Source of the DNA: an uncultured Muribaculaceae bacterium
GTDB taxonomy: Bacteria; Bacillota_I; Bacilli_A; RF39; UBA660
Assembly (NCBI GenBank): GCA_964542795.1
Contig: CAZIUX010000001.1
Coordinates: 1-29,285 of the forward strand
Reading direction: 5' to 3'
DNA: 29,285 nt
Below are positions 7,975-19,315 of this stretch, piece after piece. Made by a program: the position numbers and the translations under genes. Within the stretch, counting starts at the first letter, position 1; each line of letters begins with the position of its first letter. The notes beneath the pieces are model-generated. The model was not told where the DNA came from. It ran no database searches and saw only the letters and a program-made list of their open reading frames with translations.

Positions 7975-9018
7975 TTATTTGTTTTTCATTATATAGATAT
8001 AAATCATATCAGATTTAACTATATAGAATGTAGCTTTATCATGTTCTTCAAATAACAATATTGGAAGCATAACACTGTCAGATAAGTTTAGCATCTCTTC
8101 AAAAGACGCTATTACAACGGGTTTTAGACCCTTGGTTTCAACCATATTCTTAGCTTCAATTATTATTTCATTATAATCATCTTTTATTTGATCTAATTCA
8201 TCAATAAATGGTTTTTTATCTTTTGACATCATTATTTGTTTAATTGTAATTAATATTAATAATATAGTAGTTATTGTAAGAATAATATAGGCAGTCAATT
8301 TTCTTTGCTCACGGTTAATCTTAACAATATCTTTAGAAGCAACTGATTTTTGTTCAACATTTTCTTTTAATGCATCAACATCAAATACAGACCCACCAAG
8401 AGGCATTCTTGCGATAACTGTTTGATTTTCATTTAATGAATATTTGCCATTTCCACCGTTAAATTTAACTTCTAATTTAACTTCTAGATATGCTACTGTA
8501 GGTAATGATAAAGCCATTTTAAAATTTTCAATTTCTTGATTATAAGTTTTCCAATCTAGATTAAATGTTTCACTAACATTAAATGTACTACTTGTTTGAT
8601 ATTTTTTATATTGTTCATCAATTAATACATATTCTTTTTTCCACATAATCGGATTATTTTCGGGATCATTTGGGGTTTCATTATATTGTCCATAAATAGT
8701 CGCGGTTACTTTATGTCTTTCTTCAAGATTTATTTTTTCACTTCCAGAATATTTATAATTCATAGTCATATCAATGTCATTTACTAAATTACTAATATAT
8801 GTTTCATAGCTTTTTAAATCACTAGATTTAATAAAATCATTTTCTGAAATATTGATCGTGTAGTTAACAGCACTTGAATTTGTATATATCAAATTATTTT
8901 TAGTGCTTTTTGAGTCGTCAATAATTTTTAAGACATGATAAGCATTACTTAAAAAAACAAGTATAAAAACAAATAACAATGATATATATAGTCTACGTCT
9001 AGTTTTAACACTCTTCAT
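7975..9018 (-). CDS. DUF5305-like two-TM membrane protein
   Basis: Architecture is N-terminal TM, ~200 aa extracellular domain, second TM, then a cytoplasmic tail (VVIASFEEMLNLSDSVMLPILLFEE...IYIY) resembling DUF5305. Starts in a TAATG overlap with the signal peptidase gene. Confidence 0.7.
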   Translation of the reverse strand: MKSVKTRRRLYISLLFVFILVFLSNAYHVLKIIDDSKSTKNNLIYTNSSAVNYTINISENDFIKSSDLKSYETYISNLVNDIDMTMNYKYSGSEKINLEERHKVTATIYGQYNETPNDPENNPIMWKKEYVLIDEQYKKYQTSSTFNVSETFNLDWKTYNQEIENFKMALSLPTVAYLEVKLEVKFNGGNGKYSLNENQTVIARMPLGGSVFDVDALKENVEQKSVASKDIVKINREQRKLTAYIILTITTILLILITIKQIMMSKDKKPFIDELDQIKDDYNEIIIEAKNMVETKGLKPVVIASFEEMLNLSDSVMLPILLFEEHDKATFYIVKSDMIYIYIMKNK

Positions 9019-10199
9019 TATCTTACACCTTCTTCTACTTTTATTCCTCTAAATTGTTCTAAAAAATCTCTAAATATTATTGTTGGATATCCTACTTTAG
9101 GAATATTAAAAATTACTTTGCCGGTTATTTGATCTTCATATACTGGATCTGAATCTTTTTTTAGATTATTATCTCCCTTTGTTGTATATACTAATCCTTT
9201 ATTGGTATTCTTAACATTTATTATTCTATGAACTACATAAATATTGTTTTTCTTATACTCAATTATATCATTAATTTTTACTGAGTTATAATTTTTTTTA
9301 ATAATAATTACCATGTCTCCTCTTCTAATGTTTGGATACATACTATTACTAACTATAACTGTTGGCATGAACGGTAATAATCGAGTAGAAAAACACAATA
9401 ATACTAGTAATAGAAGCACTAATAAAAGTCTTTTAATCTTTACTTTCGTGTCATCAAATAAAGGTAAACCTAATCTTTTATATTTGCTAAAGATTTTTTC
9501 AATATTAATATATGCAAATAAAGGTGTTAAATAATCAATAATTACAAGGATAAAAAAGATATTATTAGGAAATATTGGTGTAATAATACTAACTAATTTA
9601 ATTATTAATATATATATTAAACTAGATACATAGCCATCCTTAACAGCTAAATATGTTAAGAAAATATTTAATGCTGCAAGTGGCATGAATGTCTTAATAA
9701 AATATTCTATAAATGTAGAGAAACTTTGAATTGATGCTGAAAAATTATTATATGATACATCGGAAAAAATCATAATAATTGTAATAAGTATATAAATAAT
9801 TTTTCTATTCTTGTAATTAGTATTTTTAACAAAGTAATTTCTTACGATTTCTCTTGGAACAAAAAAGCTTAATATCCACCAAGAATTCTTGACTAGTCCA
9901 AGAATAGATCTATCAAAACCGCTTTTTGTATATCCTATTACTATTCCAATAGAATAATAAATAATTACATATACTAAAACAGAAATGAGAGTAAATTCTC
10001 TTACATCTTTAGTTTTAAAACTAAATGTTTTCTTTCTATTAAATGTAAACAAGTAAATAATTCCTAATATAAATACCCAAATTATTGGTCTTATGTAGTA
10101 AATATAATTATTTCCGTATTGCCAAAAAAGCATTGGAGTTATAGCCCCAAAGATAAATACAAAAAATAATGAGTAATAAATCATTGTTTTGTTTTTCAT
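9018..10199 (-). CDS. sipW: ER-type (SipW/SEC11-like) signal peptidase I fused to an N-terminal polytopic membrane domain
   Basis: C-terminal SNSMYP (Ser286), VVHRII (His324 general base rather than Lys) and TKGDNN..D. Residues ~1-250 contain multiple hydrophobic helices. Confidence 0.88.
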   Translation of the reverse strand: MKNKTMIYYSLFFVFIFGAITPMLFWQYGNNYIYYIRPIIWVFILGIIYLFTFNRKKTFSFKTKDVREFTLISVLVYVIIYYSIGIVIGYTKSGFDRSILGLVKNSWWILSFFVPREIVRNYFVKNTNYKNRKIIYILITIIMIFSDVSYNNFSASIQSFSTFIEYFIKTFMPLAALNIFLTYLAVKDGYVSSLIYILIIKLVSIITPIFPNNIFFILVIIDYLTPLFAYINIEKIFSKYKRLGLPLFDDTKVKIKRLLLVLLLLVLLCFSTRLLPFMPTVIVSNSMYPNIRRGDMVIIIKKNYNSVKINDIIEYKKNNIYVVHRIINVKNTNKGLVYTTKGDNNLKKDSDPVYEDQITGKVIFNIPKVGYPTIIFRDFLEQFRGIKVEEGVR

Positions 10200-11883: not shown

Positions 11884-12922
11884 TTATATCACCATCTTCA
11901 AATAACTCAAAATCTATTTCTCCTGTTTCTTTAGTGGCTTTTACAGTTCTAACTTTAACTTTGTCTCCTAAACGATATCTCTTACCATGAGATGCCCCAC
12001 TTATTGTATGTTTAGTTTCATCGAAAGAATATTCATCATCAACAAGTGTTGATTGATGTACTAATCCTTCTACTAAATTATCAAGAGAAACAAAGAAACC
12101 AAATCCCATAACACCAGAGATTGTTCCTTCAAATACTTCTCCAATATGTTTAGACATATATTCAGCCATTTTCATGTCTAATACTTCTCTTTCAGAATCA
12201 ATTGCCGCTTGTTCTCTTAAGCTTGAATTATCCGCGATGAATGTTACTTTTTTATCTACACCTTTTGTATTTAAATCATTATAAATAACATATTTTCTTA
12301 ATAATCGATGTACAGTTAGATCTGGGTATCTTCTTATTGGACTAGTAAAATGAGTATAACAAGTAGACGCTAATCCAAAGTGCCCGATATTTTCTTTAGT
12401 ATATAAAGCTTTTCTCATACTACGAAGCAATAATGAAGATAAGATATTTTTATTATCTAATTCATTAACCGCATTTAAGATTTTTTGAATTGTCTTTGGT
12501 TCATAATTAGTTATTTTCTCTTCTATTTTATAACCGAAAGAGGAAGCAGTAGTTAAAAATTCTTCTACTTTTTCTGGGCTTGGTTTTTCATGAGTACGAT
12601 ATATAAATGGTAAATTCTTATTGAATATATGAGTTGCTACTGTTTCATTTGCCGCAATCATAAAGTCTTCAATTAACATTTCCCCATCTTCTCTTGTTCT
12701 AAGAACAATATCTATTGCTTCGTTATTTTTATTTACCATTACTTTAGGTTCTTGCATGTCAAAATCAAGATTACCTCGTAAGTCTTTGTTTTTTCTTAAT
12801 ATTTTAGCTAATTTATTCATTAATAATAATTTATCTTTATATTGTTCATATTCTGGATCAATAATATTTCTAATTAATAAATCATTAACTTTTTTATATG
12901 TCATTTGAATTCTTGATTTAAT
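11867..12922 (-). pseudogene. rnr: Ribonuclease R, C-terminal part (RNB C-half plus S1 domain)
   Basis: Frame opens as IKSRIQ-MTYKKVN (ATG 12904). Contains LIEDFMIAANE, YTHFTSPIRRYPDL.VHR and S1 (GFFV.L..EGLVH). Out of frame with the N-terminal part. Confidence 0.9.
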
Positions 12923-13941
12923 ATAGATTTGAACAATTTATCATCAATATCCATAATACAAGACATAGAAAGTCTTAATACACCAGGATTTAAAGAACAT
13001 ATTCCATTAGATAATTTATGAGGCAACATTGGAATAACAGAATCCGCTAAATAAGCGCTTGTGCCTCTTTTTAAGGCTTCTTTATCTAAAGGACTATTTT
13101 CTGTTACATAATGGCTTACATCGGCAATGTGTACTCCTAAACGATAGATATTACCAACCATTTCAATACTTAAAGCATCATCTATATCTTTAGTATCATC
13201 TCCATCAATTGTAAAAATTATTTCATTAGTTAAATCTTTTCTTCCTTTAAGTTCACTTTCAAAAACTTCATTTGGAATATTATCGGTTTGGGCCATTACT
13301 TCATCATTAAATTCTTCATCAAAACCGTATCTTAAAGCAATTGATTTAATATCCACTCCAGGATCATTTTTATGGCCAATTATTTTAATTATTTTAGCTA
13401 CATAACTAGTGTTGTTTTTTTCTTTAATCATTTCGATTTTAACTTTTGTTCCATCAACACAGTCTTTTATTTTTGAATCTTTAATTAATATCTTTAAATT
13501 TTTTCTTTCATCATCTAAGATCGCATAAGCTTTGTTTTTTTCAAATTTAATTTCAGCAACTAAATTATTTAAATCTCTTTTAATAATTTTTAATATTTTT
13601 CCACTATTATTTTTCTTTTCAACAGAGGAAAGAACAATATCTCCATCAACTGCTCCATTAATAAATGGCATAGGGATAAACAAATCTTCTTTAAAATCTG
13701 AATTCACAACAAACCCATAGCCCTTTTTATTTAATGTTAGTTTACCAGTTCTATAATAGTCATTTTTTGAAAATAGCATATATTTATTCTTATTAGTTTT
13801 ATATATTTTATATTCACTCTCTAATTCATCTAAAAAAAACTGTATTGCTTTTTCATCTTTTTCACTTAAGGAATTAGAGATGTCTAAAACAGTCATCTTT
13901 TTATCGGTATTTTTTAATATTTCAAGTATCTTTTCTTTCAT
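12901..13941 (-). pseudogene. rnr: Ribonuclease R, N-terminal part (HTH, cold-shock domains, start of RNB); probable start 13941
   Basis: SD AGGAG before MKEKILE. Contains GYGFV, TIDGDDTKDIDDA, VHIADVSHYV and RGTSAYL...PMLP..LSNGICSLNP. Stops at TGA soon after MDIDDKLFKS. Confidence 0.9.
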
Positions 13942-14005
13942 AATTATCTCCTGTTTTGATTTTATCATACTTTTTTATTAAAAAGATAATTAAAATTGTG
14001 TACAT

Positions 14006-14035
14006 AAAAAAACTACTAAAGCATTAGTAGTTTTT
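14006..14035. terminator. Intrinsic (potentially bidirectional) terminator after the accessory pair
   Basis: A7-CTACTAA-AGCA-TTAGTAG-T5, three nt past the stop codon. Confidence 0.8.
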
Positions 14036-14038
14036 ATG

Positions 14039-15853
14039 CTATTTTTTATATGTAAAAGGTTTGATTGTTTCTTTTATTAAACCAATATCTGTTAAACTTA
14101 AATTACTCTTATAAAGGATTGCAGATACTAACATTTCCTCAGTAAATGGTTCATTATTTGACAGAAGTGCTTTTAAATTCCTTAAAACTTTTCTAGATGA
14201 TACTGTTATTCCACTAAAACTATATATACTATTATATAAGAACTTATCATTAATCTCTTTAATTATGCTTTGATCAACATCAGTAGACAATCTTTGTGAT
14301 TGACTTAAATACTCTTTGTGATTTTTGGATAATATTTCATTACCATCATCAATTATATAATTATCTAAACAACAATCATCAACCAAAAAATTTTGTCCAG
14401 TAACAATTGCACCTATTAATCTATTATTCTTAATTATTTCAAGACCAACGCTGTACGCAATTACTATTCTTTTAGTTATTTTATTGATGTCATAGCCATT
14501 TACATTTGTAAAATCAATGGTTTTTGTGTCAATTCCTAGTTCTATCATTACATCAATTAAATCAAATAATTTAGGGTTATTATATACTTCAAGATCACTA
14601 ATATTATATTGTCTTGCTAATTCGCCAATTTGTTTTAAATTTTCAGTTTTCATTAATAAAATATTGGGATTATAGTTTGGATTACTAATATCAATTTTAT
14701 ATTCTTTTAGAATTTGAATATTGTTAAGTAATCTTTTATATAACGAATTAGGTATTTGAATTCCTTTACTTAAGAATGATTCATATTTATTTTGATCAAT
14801 AAATATACTTATATTTGAGATTATAAAATCAGTAGTTATATATCCACTTAATTGAAATCTACCGATATTATTAGCTATTTCTGGAGTAGAAGAACATAGT
14901 ATATAGTCCAGACCTTGATTAACAATACTATCTAAATTGATACCCATACTCTTTATAGAATTTAATATTTCTAAACTAGAGCTGGCATCACAATAAGTAG
15001 TAATAAAATCTTTGTTTTGAAACATATCTATAGATAGGTGGTATTTTCTAAGAATACTGTTTAATTTTTCTTTTTCATTTTGGTTACGTTGCCCAAGTAA
15101 TTTTAAATCTAGTTCATCATTTACGAATGTTTGATTATCAACAATTAACTGAAATAAATAACTTAGTGTTCTTTCTGAAAATAGTCCTCTTCCTTTTTGA
15201 TCAATAGCTAATAATGGATTTGTTCCGTTATTTTTAATATTTTCTAACATTTGGATGTGAACCTCAGAAATTTTAATTGCTTTTTGATATAGTTTTTCGA
15301 ATGATTCTTTTTCTTTTTCAACATATGTTCCTAAATCTTTTAAATAATCTTTTAGAGCATCCATTGCATAATAAAATAATTTTTTATTGATTCTAGTAAA
15401 TAATAATTTACTGTCCTCATTAAGTCCTCTTATTGTATATCCTCTACCAATAGTTACTAATAATGCATCACACATTTGAGAATAGTTTAAGTATTTATTT
15501 AAAAAATTAAATAAAACTAAGTAATTATTATGTTTTAAGATTGATATCGTTTCTTTGTTTAATAATAATTCCCTTATTTCAATAATTTTATCTAAGTCAA
15601 TACTATTGATTATTTTTTCTTCATCAACTAATTCATCTAAAATAGATTTGGAATCTATATTAGGATTTTTAATAATAATATAACTCAATAGAAATCCAAA
15701 GTTATTCATTGTTTCACTTTGTTCATCAGAAATATCTAAGGGATCTCCAAATGCTGAAACTAAACCTAAATTTTGTTTGATTCTTTCACAAGTATACTTA
15801 CTTTTTTCAAAATCATCAGAAATAGACTCAGCTATTTTCATGATATTCATCAT
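14039..15853 (-). CDS. Hypothetical 604-aa helical-repeat protein
   Basis: Long ORF with no TM. Its ATG directly follows the upstream TAA, and the SD AGGAGAG lies inside the upstream gene's last codons. ~30-32 aa periodic motif in residues ~260-475. Confidence 0.85.
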   Translation of the reverse strand: MMNIMKIAESISDDFEKSKYTCERIKQNLGLVSAFGDPLDISDEQSETMNNFGFLLSYIIIKNPNIDSKSILDELVDEEKIINSIDLDKIIEIRELLLNKETISILKHNNYLVLFNFLNKYLNYSQMCDALLVTIGRGYTIRGLNEDSKLLFTRINKKLFYYAMDALKDYLKDLGTYVEKEKESFEKLYQKAIKISEVHIQMLENIKNNGTNPLLAIDQKGRGLFSERTLSYLFQLIVDNQTFVNDELDLKLLGQRNQNEKEKLNSILRKYHLSIDMFQNKDFITTYCDASSSLEILNSIKSMGINLDSIVNQGLDYILCSSTPEIANNIGRFQLSGYITTDFIISNISIFIDQNKYESFLSKGIQIPNSLYKRLLNNIQILKEYKIDISNPNYNPNILLMKTENLKQIGELARQYNISDLEVYNNPKLFDLIDVMIELGIDTKTIDFTNVNGYDINKITKRIVIAYSVGLEIIKNNRLIGAIVTGQNFLVDDCCLDNYIIDDGNEILSKNHKEYLSQSQRLSTDVDQSIIKEINDKFLYNSIYSFSGITVSSRKVLRNLKALLSNNEPFTEEMLVSAILYKSNLSLTDIGLIKETIKPFTYKK

Positions 15854-16834
15854 TTATAACACTCTCCTTAAATTATTATCTAAGTATTCTATTATTTCTC
15901 CCGCTTCTTTTTTGAAAGATTCTTCATCATACTCAGAAATTAGGGAGTCAGAAAATGATTTAATTCTTTTTATGCGTTTTTGAAGAGTGCGATAACTTGC
16001 CTCTTCAGAATTTTGTTTTTTTATGAACACTTGGGTAATAAAACAATATTCCTTAACAAAAGTAAAGACCACACGACAGAAACCACTTCTTGATTCTAAA
16101 GCCGCCATCGAAATGAATTTCTTTTGATTAATTGGTTTTCCTCTTATAATTGAAATAAACGATTCTTTTATATCTTCATAAAATTCTGGAGATATACTTT
16201 TAATATCAGAGTAGAAGTCAATATTTCCTTGGGGAGTTTTCAAAAATATCGGTTTATAATTGGAAACAAAAGGTGCTGTTTCTTCAACAGTTTCTTCTTT
16301 GGCACTTGATAAAAATTTAATTGTTTCTATTAATTCTATAATTTTCTTTTTTTCTCTTTGTTTTTCTTCTTTATATTCTTCTTCTTTCAACATGTCATTA
16401 TAAAATTTTAATTCTGAAAACTTTCTTAATAACAATTGTACTAGTATTTCGTCTTTGTCTTCTCTTTCAAGAATATCGTCAATTATATCATCAATACTTA
16501 TACCTTCTTCAAGCAAATTTAAATAAAGTTGAACAGAATCATTTTCCTTAATACATGTTGGCTTAATAGGGACAAATGTTTTTGTATTTTCAACTTTGTT
16601 TGGTAATTGTGTGGTTTTAGAAGCAATGATTTGATCAGTTATAATTGTTCTTTTTAGCTCTTCTTTTTTTCTCAGTAAAATAATTCTATTATGTTCTACT
16701 ATAGTTTCTAGAATCATTCTTTTATTTTCAAAGTCATCACCTGAAATAGAGAACATATTAAAAATTTCTTCATAGTCTCCAATGAATTCTACTGATTTAT
16801 TTATATATTCTTTAATCTTTTTTATTTCGGCCAT
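15854..16834 (-). CDS. Hypothetical 326-aa protein with a helical N-terminus and a C-terminal RelE/ParE(Gp49)-like domain; probable start 16834
   Basis: SD-like GAGGGGG 7 nt before ATG GCC (MAEIKK). C-terminal YKPIFLKTPQG...ALESR...RVVF...ITQVFIKKQ matches the recalled Gp49/RelE pattern. Confidence 0.72.
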   Translation of the reverse strand: MAEIKKIKEYINKSVEFIGDYEEIFNMFSISGDDFENKRMILETIVEHNRIILLRKKEELKRTIITDQIIASKTTQLPNKVENTKTFVPIKPTCIKENDSVQLYLNLLEEGISIDDIIDDILEREDKDEILVQLLLRKFSELKFYNDMLKEEEYKEEKQREKKKIIELIETIKFLSSAKEETVEETAPFVSNYKPIFLKTPQGNIDFYSDIKSISPEFYEDIKESFISIIRGKPINQKKFISMAALESRSGFCRVVFTFVKEYCFITQVFIKKQNSEEASYRTLQKRIKRIKSFSDSLISEYDEESFKKEAGEIIEYLDNNLRRVL

Positions 16835-16860
16835 AAAAAAACCCCCTCTTTTGAGGGAGT
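16835..16860 (-). terminator. Intrinsic terminator of rplJ-rplL
   Basis: Minus strand ACTCCCTC-AAAA-GAGGGGGT followed by T6, ~30 nt after the rplL stop. Confidence 0.85.
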
Positions 16861-16889
16861 ATTCTAGCAAATAACTACTATTTTGTCAA
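16861..16889 (-). promoter_or_regulatory. Near-consensus sigmaA promoter for the accessory pair
   Basis: TTGACA (16889-16884), 17 nt spacer, TG-c-TAGAAT (16866-16861). Confidence 0.8.
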
Positions 16890-16890
16890 A

Positions 16891-17256
16891 TTATGCTAAT
16901 TCGATAGTAGCGCCGGCTTCTTCAAGTTGAGCTTTAACTGTGTTAGCTTCTTCAGCAGGAATGTTTTCTTTAACATTTCCTCCGTTGTCTGCTAAAGCTT
17001 TAGCTTCAACTAATCCTAAACCAGTTAATTCACGAATAATTTTAATTACTTGAATTTTAGCTGCTCCTGCATTTTTTAATACAACAGTTTTAGTTTTAGG
17101 TCCTTCTTCTTGAGCTGCTGCAGTTGGAGCTGCTACTGCTACTGCAGATGGATCTACTCCTAATTCTTCTTTCATTAAATCAACTAATTCTTTAACTTCA
17201 AGAATAGTCATTTCTTTTAATGAATCAATAATTTCTTTTGCGCTTAATTTTGCCAT
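16891..17256 (-). CDS. rplL: 50S ribosomal protein L7/L12
   Basis: [36 protein letters not shown]. Confidence 0.99.
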
Positions 17257-17277
17257 CTTTTTTCTCCTCTTTCCTTT

Positions 17278-17778
17278 TTAGTTATTTTCTTCACTCTTTT
17301 TGTCAGCATATAAGTCTAAACAAATTGCGACATTTCGAACATGTTCCATTAATCCACCAGCAAACATTGATAGTAAGCCTTCATATGATGGAATTGTTGC
17401 ATATTCTTTGATAACATCTACAGTGACAACTTTATTATCAATAATACCAGTTCTAATAGTCATTAATTTACTAGTAGTACTGTATTTATCAACAGTTTTA
17501 ATTGGGTCGATGATATCACTACCAAATACAAATGCATTTGGGCCTTCTAAGAAAGCGTCTAAGTCATATCCAAGATCATTTAATGCTCTTTTAACAAGAG
17601 TATTTTTATAAACTTTAATATCACTTGATGATTTTCTTAATTCTCTTCTTAATTCACTAATGTTAGAAACAGTAGATCCCTTGTAATCAACAATAACCAT
17701 TGTTTTTGAATTACTTAGCTTATCTTTAATTTCTTGAACAACATCGTTTTTTAAATTAAGATTTCTTTCACTTGCCAT
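17278..17778 (-). CDS. rplJ: 50S ribosomal protein L10
   Basis: VDYKG.TV...ELR, KVYKNTL..RA, LEGP, ATIPSYEGLL. Confidence 0.98.
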   Translation of the reverse strand: MASERNLNLKNDVVQEIKDKLSNSKTMVIVDYKGSTVSNISELRRELRKSSSDIKVYKNTLVKRALNDLGYDLDAFLEGPNAFVFGSDIIDPIKTVDKYSTTSKLMTIRTGIIDNKVVTVDVIKEYATIPSYEGLLSMFAGGLMEHVRNVAICLDLYADKKSEENN

Positions 17779-18676: not shown

Positions 18677-19285
18677 TTATTCATTATTTTTGTCGTCATC
18701 AGAATCTTCATCAGAATCTTTTTTAGTGATAAGTTCAACTTCTTTACTGTCAGCAAGTTCTTTAGCTTCTTCTTCAAGTTGAGCTAATTCTTGTTCGCGT
18801 TTTTGCATTTCTATTTCTTTTTCTGCAGCTTCTGCACTTTGTTCCAACAATTCTTGGTCATTAACGCCTTTAACAGCGATTCCCATGTTACGAGCTGTAC
18901 CTTCAATGATATTCATTGCCGATTCAACATCATATGCATTTAAATCTGGTAACTTAGTTTCAGCTATTTTTCTTAAATCTTCTTTAGAAATAGTTGCAAC
19001 AACTTGGTTAGCACCTTTAGCGCTTCCCTTAACTCCGGCAACCTTTTTTAATAAAAATGCTGCTGGTGAAGTTTTAATTACAAATGTGAATGAACGATCA
19101 TCATATAAAGAAATTTCAACAGGAACTACATCTCCCATTTTATCTCTAGATGCTTCATTAAATTGTGTACAAAATTCTTGTAAATTAATTCCTGCTGGAC
19201 CCAAAACAGTTCCTACTGGAGGAGCTGGTGTTGCTTTTCCGGCTGGCACTTGTAATTTAATTTTTCTTACGATTTCTTTTGCCAC
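18677..19285 (-). CDS. rplK: 50S ribosomal protein L11 with a ~62-aa acidic C-terminal extension; probable GTG start 19285
   Basis: [41 protein letters not shown] precedes GTG. Confidence 0.98.
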
Positions 19286-19315
19286 GATAAACACCTCCTA
19301 TAAATATTTTCGCTA

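What the first reader, a model, noticed from the sequence alone, without database searches (positions are those of the whole stretch)
14039..16834. Candidate new two-gene module: RelE/Gp49-like nuclease-domain protein coupled to a large helical-repeat protein, between rplL and rnr
Seen: two ORFs (326 and 604 aa) form a self-contained unit with their own promoter (16861-16889) and terminator (14006-14035). They are tightly coupled: TAA is followed directly by ATG, with the SD inside the first gene's last codons. The first protein's C-terminus (~15962-16258) reads YKPIFLKTPQG..DFYSDIKSI...ALESR..FCRVVF...ITQVFIKKQ. Established: RelE/ParE-superfamily toxins of the Gp49 type are ~100-aa proteins with a similar 'F...G...ElR...Ri.Y/F...F.KK' pattern, normally paired with small HTH/RHH antitoxins. 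Inference: here the toxin-like domain follows a ~190-aa acidic helical extension and is paired with a 604-aa partner. That suggests an undescribed toxin-antitoxin, anti-phage or ribosome-associated RNase module.
Basis: partly seen in the sequence, partly recalled or inferred. Interest (0 to 1): 0.8.

Follow-up and report, generated by a model that had tools for sequence, protein, structure and literature searches.

The report
HigB-like RNase with giant helical partner
A two-gene operon in an uncultured, small-genome digester bacterium pairs a protein carrying an intact-looking HigB/RelE-type ribosome-dependent RNase domain with an always-adjacent 600-residue helical protein of no known fold, a toxin-antitoxin-like layout I did not find described.

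Summary
Genes of 326 aa (15854-16834, minus strand) and 604 aa (14039-15853, minus strand) form one operon with its own promoter, a TAAATG junction and a terminator.

Gene 1, residues about 190-300, is a HigB/Gp49-type RelE fold.
- The AF2 model has pLDDT 89.9.
- Foldseek and an independent aligner both rank S. pneumoniae HigB and M. tuberculosis HigB1 first (Z about 10).
- Pfam Gp49 hits same-genus homologues at E 5e-5.
- The experimentally defined HigB residues map to E247, R249, R254, F270 and K272. These are kept in 52-62 of 62 family members.

The basic RNase domain sits behind an acidic 185-aa helical domain. Gene 2 is acidic, almost all-helical, and matches no Pfam family or solved fold.

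The family has 338 clusters in metagenomes. Among the genomes sampled it is confined to one bacterial family. All 37 genomes with a strong gene 2 hit have gene 1 next to it, and tandem module duplicates exist. The pair diverges much faster than its neighbours (about 30% identity against 63-86%) but is under purifying selection (dN/dS 0.17).

The most likely reading is a non-canonical toxin-antitoxin or defence-like module built on an A-site mRNA endonuclease. Toxicity, interaction and RNA cleavage are untested.

The parts
16861..16889 (-). Sigma-70-type promoter of the two-gene operon (TTGACA, 17 nt, TG-n-TAGAAT)
   Evidence: It matches 11 of 12 positions and is the best site in 13800-17400. 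The same-genus genome G005 has an equivalent TTGACA-17-TAGAGT between the rplL terminator and gene 1.
16835..16860 (-). Hairpin ACTCCCTC-AAAA-GAGGGGGT followed by a T-run. It acts as a terminator-like element after rplL, and its 3' arm is also the Shine-Dalgarno sequence of gene 1.
   Evidence: Terminator scan and sequence. Contigs from RNA libraries drop from depth 10-19 over rplL to 0-3 over gene 1 at about 16864-16915.
15854..16834 (-). Gene 1: a 326-aa three-part protein (P0001)
   Evidence: AF2 model with pLDDT 89.9; full-length family of 338 representative clusters.
16280..16834 (-). Gene 1 N-terminal acidic helical domain (residues 1-185), with a disordered linker at 75-98
   Evidence: AF2 secondary structure; pI 4.9, net charge -11, family median -12. 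It has only generic helical-hairpin structural matches.
15935..16267 (-). Gene 1 HigB/Gp49-type RelE-fold domain (residues 190-300: beta-alpha-alpha-beta-beta-beta plus helix alpha3)
   Evidence: Foldseek: 6af4 HigB, E 2e-4, probability 1.0; 7nbu/7awk HigB1. VIA-align: Z 10.2 and 10.0. Pfam Gp49 in homologues at E 5e-5. pI 9.6.
16019..16096 (-). Predicted catalytic residues: E247 (16094-16096), R249 (16088-16090), R254 (16073-16075), F270 (16025-16027), K272 (16019-16021)
   Evidence: A profile alignment to S. pneumoniae HigB maps R254, F270 and K272 onto R73, F90 and K92. By my reading of the family alignment, E247 and R249 are the counterparts of E66 and R68. These HigB residues are defined in PMC7984235 and PMC9098466. 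Family conservation is 55/62, 61/62 (K or R), 62/62, 52/62 and 62/62.
15857..15934 (-). Gene 1 C-terminal acidic helix (residues 301-326)
   Evidence: AF2 helix 304-320; pI 4.4.
14039..15853 (-). Gene 2: a 604-aa acidic, almost all-helical partner (P0002). It has an N-terminal long-helix hairpin (4-33 and 157-207), short-helix units at about 258-525, and a basic C-terminal beta-hairpin/helix domain at 526-604.
   Evidence: AF2 pLDDT 88.3. No Pfam, PADLOC, PHROG or NCBIfam hit. No PDB or viral fold match. Always directly downstream of gene 1.
14002..14039 (-). Intrinsic terminator hairpin plus U-run ending the operon
   Evidence: dG -14.1 kcal/mol, z -4.25.

Best explanation
This is a chromosomal, lineage-restricted two-gene module of the toxin-antitoxin or conflict type, built around a HigB/Gp49-type RelE domain.

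Gene 1 carries a basic RelE-fold domain with the full HigB catalytic set. This is shown by structure prediction and by residue mapping. It is inferred to enter the ribosomal A site and cleave mRNA, as HigB toxins and the multidomain CARF-RelE effector Cami1 do.

The RNase domain is flanked in the same polypeptide by an acidic 185-aa helical domain and an acidic C-terminal helix. It is co-translated with an acidic 604-aa helical protein. I infer that these acidic parts hold the RNase inactive. I also infer that the large, fast-evolving partner is the neutraliser and possibly the trigger sensor, and that its loss, displacement or modification releases the RNase to arrest translation.

Shown: the fold, the conserved active-site residues, obligate adjacency, an own promoter and terminator, fast divergence with purifying selection, tandem duplication, and patchy distribution.

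Inferred: RNase activity, ribosome dependence, physical interaction, neutralisation, and any defence role.
For: - Fold: AF2 pLDDT 89.9 with beta-alpha-alpha-beta-beta-beta plus alpha3 at residues 190-300. The top PDB matches by two independent aligners are HigB toxins of the Gp49 type. In AFDB the domain matches RelE/ParE toxins.
- Sequence: Pfam Gp49 is the only recurrent family (3 of 4 genus homologues; 12 of 80 family members).
- Active site: E247, R249, R254, F270 and K272 correspond to S. pneumoniae HigB E66, R68, R73, F90 and K92, and are conserved across the family.
- Gene order is toxin first, as in Gp49/HigB modules (PMC11980606).
- Charge pattern is a basic RNase domain against an acidic N-domain and an acidic partner.
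- Coupling and adjacency: TAAATG junction; partner adjacent in 18/18 and 20/21 loci and in 37/37 genomes with strong gene 2 hits.
- Whole-module tandem duplicates occur in G252 and G269.
- Distribution is patchy: 85 of 301 genomes in the bacterial family, 0 of about 383 elsewhere in the phylum sample.
- Divergence is about 30% identity within the genus, against 63-86% for rplL, rplJ and rnr.
- A gene 2 allele pair has dS 0.17 next to a 1407-nt identical rnr, with dN/dS 0.17.
- Cami1 shows that a sensor-RelE fusion can act at the A site (PMC11229360).
Against: - No toxicity, binding or cleavage data exist.
- The partner is nothing like a known antitoxin: 604 aa, with no HTH or RHH detected.
- No PADLOC hit.
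- Not found on phages, plasmids or IMG/VR contigs.
- Neighbours are housekeeping genes, not defence islands or mobile elements.
- The locus is stable within genera.
- A related 470-515-aa form lacks the partner. The RNase-domain protein therefore does not always need it.
- P0001 has a 4-residue deletion just before the E-x-R motif and no Pfam hit of its own.
Confidence: 0.5

Rival explanations
1. Domesticated housekeeping factor. The RelE-domain protein and its scaffold form a translation-coupled mRNA surveillance or decay nuclease, for example cutting mRNA in stalled ribosomes to feed RNase R and tmRNA. It would not be a toxin held in check.
For: - The module lies in housekeeping neighbourhoods.
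- It is not on mobile elements.
- It is syntenic within genera.
- It is under purifying selection.
- Contigs from RNA libraries cover both genes at low depth.
- A partner-less long form exists.
Against: - The partnered form is found in only about 37 of 301 sampled genomes of the bacterial family, and in none outside it.
- Identity within the genus is about 30%, against 63-86% for flanking housekeeping genes.
- There are tandem duplications and a deep allelic split at the locus.
- The position in the genome differs between genera.
Confidence: 0.25
2. Non-catalytic use of the RelE fold. The domain only binds ribosomes or RNA (or another target such as gyrase, as in ParE), and the pair acts as a regulator or structural complex without RNA cleavage.
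For: Some Gp49-type HigB proteins (M. tuberculosis HigB2 and HigB3) are non-toxic and poorly active (PMC9098466). P0001 has a deletion next to the E-x-R motif. In my reading of the alignment, the partner-less long form appears not to keep the E-x-K/R motif.
Against: All five HigB active-site positions are conserved in P0001 and nearly invariant in 62 family members. The nearest structures are RNase-type HigB toxins rather than ParE. The domain is strongly basic.
Confidence: 0.12
3. Guide-plus-nuclease. Gene 2 is an mTERF- or PPR-like helical-repeat nucleic-acid binder that directs the gene 1 RNase to particular RNAs.
For: Short-helix units of about 30 aa between residues 258 and 525. Weak internal repeat signal (hhalign probability 61-64%). 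An earlier first-reader note proposed mTERF likeness.
Against: - No mTERF Pfam hit in P0002, in 41 relatives, or in a six-frame search of the genome.
- No mTERF or other repeat protein appears among the fold matches.
- The protein is acidic (pI 5.25, family median net charge -16). This is unlike the generally basic helical-repeat nucleic-acid binders such as mTERF (from my own knowledge).
Confidence: 0.07

Closest known systems
HigB toxins of the Gp49 family (Pfam PF05973), e.g. S. pneumoniae HigB (PDB 6AF3/6AF4) and M. tuberculosis HigB1 of the TAC system (7AWK/7NBU)
   Same: - RelE fold including the extra helix alpha3.
- Equivalent catalytic Glu, Arg/Lys, Arg, Phe and Lys residues.
- Basic domain.
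- Toxin gene first in the operon.
- Ribosome-dependent mRNA cleavage is the family's established activity.
   Different: - The domain is embedded in a 326-aa protein, behind an acidic 185-aa helical domain and before an acidic C-terminal helix.
- Pfam score is at or below threshold.
- The downstream gene is a 604-aa helical protein, not an HTH HigA antitoxin.
- No SecB-like chaperone is present.
Cami1 (CARF-RelE effector of type III CRISPR systems; PDB 8PHB/8PHJ)
   Same: [quoted passage not shown] It shows that large RelE fusions can work on ribosomes. It appears among the fold matches through the RelE domain.
   Different: The N-terminal domain here is all-helical, not CARF. No CRISPR locus or cyclic-nucleotide signalling genes lie nearby. 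Here there is an obligate 600-aa partner.
Multidomain and fused BECR-fold toxins surveyed by Gerdes 2025 (PMC11980606): gp49-HTH fusions, ToxM, ptuXYZ
   Same: These are RelE/ParE-superfamily domains in non-canonical architectures that are proposed to act as defence toxins.
   Different: The survey's text lists gp49-HTH fusions only for the Gp49 family. It states that many multidomain proteins without an identifiable antitoxin were left out. The architecture and partner seen here are not mentioned.

Membership tests
RelE/ParE superfamily, Gp49/HigB type (PF05973) | RelE fold: beta-alpha-alpha-beta-beta-beta core, with a C-terminal helix in this subtype | tested here: met
   AF2 model, pLDDT above 90 over residues 190-300. 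Foldseek probability 1.0 to HigB, RelE, YafQ, YoeB and ParE. VIA-align Z 10.2 and 10.0 to HigB and HigB1, covering 100 of 114 and 113 of 121 residues.
RelE/ParE superfamily, Gp49/HigB type (PF05973) | Match to the Pfam PF05973 model above its gathering score (23.9 bits) | tested here: not met
   P0001 has no hit at E up to 10. Same-genus homologues score 22.8 and 23.7 bits (E 9e-5 and 5e-5), just under the threshold. 12 of 80 family members hit at E below 0.01.
RelE/ParE superfamily, Gp49/HigB type (PF05973) | Conserved catalytic residues (S. pneumoniae HigB E66, R68, R73, F90, K92; M. tuberculosis HigB1 R68, R77, K95) | tested here: met
   They correspond to E247, R249, R254, F270 and K272. 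R254, F270 and K272 come from the profile alignment; E247 and R249 are from my reading of the family alignment. Conserved in 55/62, 61/62, 62/62, 52/62 and 62/62 members. Residue roles are from PMC7984235 and PMC9098466.
RelE/ParE superfamily, Gp49/HigB type (PF05973) | Ribosome-dependent mRNA endonuclease activity | not testable with these tools
   Needs in vitro translation and cleavage assays.
Canonical type II toxin-antitoxin module (HigBA type) | Bicistronic, co-transcribed, translationally coupled pair with the toxin gene first | tested here: met
   Own promoter and terminator, TAAATG junction. The same order holds in all relatives examined.
Canonical type II toxin-antitoxin module (HigBA type) | Small (about 70-150 aa) antitoxin with an HTH or RHH DNA-binding domain | tested here: not met
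   The partner is 604 aa. No Pfam or NCBIfam hit; 1 of 41 relatives has a lone weak HTH_36 hit. No small ORF lies in the operon.
Canonical type II toxin-antitoxin module (HigBA type) | Toxin arrests growth and the cognate partner neutralises it by direct binding | not testable with these tools
   No multimer prediction tool was available; needs expression experiments.
Known anti-phage defence systems (PADLOC-DB 2.0) | Match of either protein to a defence-system model | tested here: not met
   No hits at E up to 1. Neighbours are housekeeping genes.
mTERF-like helical repeat proteins (PF02536), for gene 2 | Match to the mTERF model, or fold similarity to solved mTERF structures | tested here: not met
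   No Pfam hit in P0002 or in 41 relatives. A six-frame search of the own genome with PF02536 does not hit gene 2. No mTERF among the Foldseek or VIA matches. The central domain could not be folded and searched on its own, so a remote likeness is not excluded.
Toxin-antitoxin-chaperone (TAC) systems | Third gene encoding a SecB-like chaperone, plus an HTH antitoxin with a chaperone-addiction tail | tested here: not met
   The operon has only two genes. Gene 2 is all-helical with no Pfam match.

The most novel reading that the evidence does not exclude
This may be a new class of translation-arrest immunity or conflict system. A HigB-type A-site RNase is fused to an acidic helical clamp. It is guarded by a large, rapidly diversifying helical protein that acts as the sensor for an invader or a stress cue. 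Divergent alleles of the guard are kept within populations, as seen in G004.
Probability: 0.3. Interest if true: 0.75.

Novelty: new variant of a known kind. Interest (0 to 1): 0.6.

Why it matters
RelE/HigB toxins are textbook small toxins neutralised by small DNA-binding antitoxins. Here the same catalytic domain, apparently intact, is built into a three-part protein and is strictly coupled to a 600-residue protein with no recognisable fold or family.

If the partner controls the RNase, it would widen the range of ways bacteria gate ribosome-dependent mRNA cleavage. It would also give a function to two unannotated protein families (338 or more clusters for gene 1) that are common in uncultured, small-genome Mollicutes-like bacteria of digesters and, probably, guts.

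If instead the pair is a domesticated quality-control nuclease, it would be a rare case of a RelE toxin fold recruited to housekeeping translation surveillance in reduced genomes.

Either outcome can be tested with simple expression and in vitro translation assays using the point mutants predicted here.

Tried and rejected
- Word-index homologue searches found only near-identical copies. Only the exhaustive profile search revealed the family.
- Full-length profiles against PDB sequences gave nothing. The domain-only profile gave HigB as top hit, but only at E 0.05.
- Scans with the A3 and A6 alignments failed for lack of conserved columns.
- Gene 2 gave no usable match in any of these: Foldseek PDB, VIA-align wide (only coiled-coil matches, Z up to 9.7), pdb_via, BFVD viral, ESM Atlas by features and by shape. 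AFDB returned only two unnamed family members.
- mTERF likeness was rejected on sequence, fold and charge.
- A phage, plasmid or viral-contig origin was not supported.
- Rosetta-stone test: the extra N-terminal region of the partner-less 470-515-aa variants is not homologous to gene 2 (hhalign probability 5.7%).
- Possible homology between the gene 1 N-domain and the centre of gene 2 (a shared 'L..I..HN..iY' helix) is only borderline (hhalign probability 48.7%, E 1.8e-4). It is kept as a lead, not a result.
- A ribosome-operon link was considered, because the module sits by rplJL here and by rplU-prp-rpmA in five loci of related genomes. I rejected it as evidence because the position varies among genera and these genomes are dominated by housekeeping genes.
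Full report
**Observation.** The window comes from a 0.9-Mb MAG in 143 contigs, about 77% complete and about 26% G+C, read with table 11. On the minus strand, a 326-aa ORF (ATG 16834, stop 15854-15856) is followed at once by a 604-aa ORF (ATG 15853, stop 14039-14041). The junction is TAAATG, and an AAGGAGAG Shine-Dalgarno sequence lies in the last codons of gene 1.

Between the rplL stop and gene 1 lies the best promoter match of the region, TTGACA-17-TAGAAT (11 of 12, with TG before the -10). A G+C-rich hairpin and T-run follow it, and the hairpin's 3' arm is the gene 1 SD. After gene 2 there is a hairpin plus U-run (dG -14.1 kcal/mol, z -4.25). In the same-genus genome G005 the rplL terminator, a TTGACA-17-TAGAGT promoter and the SD are separate and in that order. 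So the pair is a self-contained operon in relatives too.

**No library annotation.** Pfam, NCBIfam, PADLOC and PHROGs give nothing credible for either protein. Word-index searches of 5.8 billion proteins find only near-identical copies. Sources that hold family members call them at most 'hypothetical protein'.

**Relatives.** Three of five other species of the genus carry both genes in the same order. G005 has rplJ-rplL upstream and G004 has rnr downstream. Identity to the window's proteins is only 29-33% for gene 1 and 32-33% for gene 2. The flanking rplL, rplJ and rnr are 86%, 78% and 63% identical.

An exhaustive profile search of 1.84 billion representatives found 338 clusters at E up to 1e-3 (107 at 1e-10). 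Most are full-length matches of 310-350 aa. So gene 1 belongs to a sizeable, unannotated full-length family.

**Gene 1 fold.** An AF2 model built on 80 family sequences has mean pLDDT 89.9. Its layout is:
- helices over residues 2-178, with a disordered linker at 75-98;
- then beta(194-197)-alpha-alpha-beta-beta-beta(263-271) and helix 277-300;
- then helix 304-320.

Foldseek against the PDB ranks S. pneumoniae HigB (6AF4/6AF3; E 2e-4, probability 1.0) and M. tuberculosis HigB1 (7NBU/7AWK) first. RelE, YafQ, ParE, YoeB and the RelE domain of Cami1 follow. VIA-align run against 48,161 chains without Foldseek gives the same two on top: Z 10.2 over model residues 192-293, and Z 10.0 over 190-303. 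Everything else is at or below 9.1 and generic. In AFDB the best hit is a full-length uncharacterised family member, followed by RelE/ParE toxins aligned to residues about 189-298.

By sequence, Pfam Gp49 (PF05973) hits three of four genus members (E 5e-5 and 9e-5; 23.7 and 22.8 bits against a 23.9-bit threshold). It is the only recurrent family among the 80 members (12 hits). P0001 itself has no hit. It has a 4-residue deletion just before the E-x-R motif.

**Active site.** Mutagenesis of S. pneumoniae HigB defined R68, R73, F90 and K92 (with E66) as the active site (PMC7984235). For M. tuberculosis HigB1 the equivalents are R68, R77 and K95, which line the A-site mRNA in the ribosome complex (PMC9098466).

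The domain profile aligns to the HigB chain so that R73, F90 and K92 fall on P0001 R254, F270 and K272. By my reading of the family alignment, E66 and R68 fall on E247 and R249. I checked these codons directly in the DNA. In 62 family members these positions are E in 55, K or R in 61, R in 62, F in 52 and K in 62. The domain is basic (pI 9.6). The N-terminal 185 residues are acidic (pI 4.9, net charge -11; family median -12), and so is the C-terminal tail.

I conclude with high confidence that this is a HigB/Gp49-type RelE domain. With moderate confidence I conclude that it is a competent RNase.

**Gene 2.** The AF2 model on 41 partner sequences has pLDDT 88.3. It consists of:
- two very long helices (4-33 and 157-207);
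- many short helices from 258 to 525;
- a C-terminal unit at 526-604 with a beta-hairpin and helices, carrying the family's best-conserved motif (Y-x-I-x-G-x-x-I-S-x-N-K-V-x-R-N).

There is no recurrent Pfam family among the 41 relatives. There is no meaningful PDB match by Foldseek, VIA-wide or pdb_via, no viral match, and only unnamed family members in AFDB and the Atlas.

The mTERF idea fails on several counts. The Pfam model does not hit. A six-frame search of the genome with PF02536 does not touch gene 2. The protein is acidic (pI 5.25, family median net charge -16). Internal repeats are only weakly detectable (hhalign probability 61-64% between segments 258-322, 322-395 and 395-452).

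**The pair as a unit.** In 18 of 18 loci fetched around strong gene 1 hits, a 573-698-aa homologue of gene 2 lies directly downstream, usually overlapping by a few bases. The same holds in 20 of 21 further copies.

Across 301 genomes of the order, the gene 1 profile hits 85 genomes (41 of 128 genera). The gene 2 profile gives 37 genomes with strong hits, all adjacent to a short-form gene 1. G252 and G269 carry two complete modules in tandem. The own genome has one copy of each gene. Outside this one bacterial family, none of about 383 sampled genomes of the phylum has a match.

About half of the gene 1 hits are a related 470-515-aa form. It shares the middle helices, the Gp49-like domain and the C-terminal helix, but has a different N-terminus and no partner. 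Its extra region is not related to gene 2.

**Context.** Neighbours of the module in 16 loci are housekeeping genes: L21/Prp/L27 in five loci, AddAB-like helicase-nucleases, sigma factors, FtsW, tRNA synthetases and gyrase. No integrase, transposase or restriction genes appear among the recurrent families. The position differs between genera and is conserved within them. No relative was found in phage, plasmid or IMG/VR collections.

**Selection and polymorphism.** In G004 two contigs carry the locus. Their rnr parts (1407 nt) are identical. Their gene 2 parts differ at 80 sites (dS 0.166, dN 0.028, dN/dS 0.17). So the gene is under purifying selection, yet the locus holds far deeper alleles than its flank. 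The cause could be recombination, balancing selection or strain mixing in the bin.

**Expression.** Near-identical DNA occurs in anaerobic digester, bioreactor and wastewater metagenomes. In four metatranscriptome libraries, short contigs with 0-4 mismatches lie inside gene 1 (X15) and gene 2 (X16-X18) at depth 2-4, against 6-19 over rplL. The rplL contigs end at 16864-16915. This fits termination after rplL and low expression of the module. DNA carry-over cannot be excluded.

**Interpretation.** The evidence best fits a non-canonical toxin-antitoxin or conflict-type module. It has a HigB-type, presumably ribosome-dependent mRNA endonuclease domain, gated by acidic helical elements in cis and by a large acidic partner in trans. 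Five lines of evidence favour this over a plain housekeeping role:
- the toxin-first gene order of Gp49 modules (PMC11980606);
- the charge complementarity;
- the obligate coupling of the two genes;
- the patchy distribution, tandem duplication and fast divergence;
- the precedent of Cami1, a sensor-RelE fusion acting at the A site (PMC11229360).

Against it stand the housekeeping neighbourhoods, the lack of any link to mobile elements, the partner-less long form, and the total absence of functional data. Membership of the RelE/ParE superfamily (Gp49/HigB type) is supported by fold and active site, but not by the Pfam threshold. Membership of canonical HigBA modules fails on the antitoxin.

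The recent survey of multidomain RelE/ParE toxins lists only gp49-HTH fusions for this family. It says that proteins without an identifiable antitoxin were set aside. I therefore rate this as a new variant of a known kind.

Noticed in passing
window 12901-12945 (minus strand): rnr is split into two overlapping ORFs (355 and 345 aa) in different frames. In the same-genus genome G004 the gene reads straight through this point (DIDSSGNVVNHQIYESYIKSSIQMTYKK), so the window copy has a frameshift or small deletion, or an assembly error.
   Followed up: partly
window 18677-19294 (minus strand): Ribosomal protein L11 is 205 aa. It carries a C-terminal extension of about 60 residues that is very acidic and predicted helical from its sequence ([14 protein letters not shown]...DSDEDSDDD), which is absent from typical 140-aa L11 proteins.
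   Followed up: no
window 16835-16889 (minus strand): The operon promoter lies upstream of the rplL terminator-like hairpin, so a transcript from it would start inside the hairpin's 5' arm. That would leave the SD, which is the 3' arm, unpaired. Read-through from rplL would form the hairpin. In G005 the terminator and the promoter are separate and in the usual order.
   Followed up: partly
L051-L054 (G179, G078, G234, G084), about 8000-9700 in each locus: A related 470-515-aa protein family shares the middle helices, the Gp49-like domain and the C-terminal helix with gene 1. It has a different, longer N-terminus and no 600-aa partner. In my reading of the alignment, the E-x-K/R motif appears not to be kept in at least one member.
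   Followed up: partly
L010 (G004 contig 37) against L008 (G004 contig 53): Two contigs of one MAG have identical rnr (1407 nt, 0 differences) but gene 2 alleles that differ at 80 sites (dS 0.17, dN/dS 0.17). The module is a local hotspot of strain diversity, or a site of recombination.
   Followed up: partly
G120:C2:115190-116887, G083:C1:320174-321952, G252:C22, G071:C19, G114:C6 and others: Other ORFs of about 520-750 aa (mostly 600 or more) in this bacterial family match only part of the gene 2 profile. Many match only its C-terminal 90-residue beta-hairpin/helix domain, and these places are not ones where a gene 1 match was reported. That domain appears to be a reusable module of unknown function.
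   Followed up: no
P0001 residues about 14-157 against P0002 residues about 210-346: The profiles of the gene 1 N-domain and the centre of gene 2 align weakly (hhalign probability 48.7%, E 1.8e-4) around a shared 'L..I..HN..iY' helix. This may point to a common origin or to a homotypic contact.
   Followed up: partly
P0004 against P0002 (gene 2, residues about 206-245): A near-identical strain copy of gene 2 (564 aa) lacks 40 residues in frame, within the long second helix.
   Followed up: no
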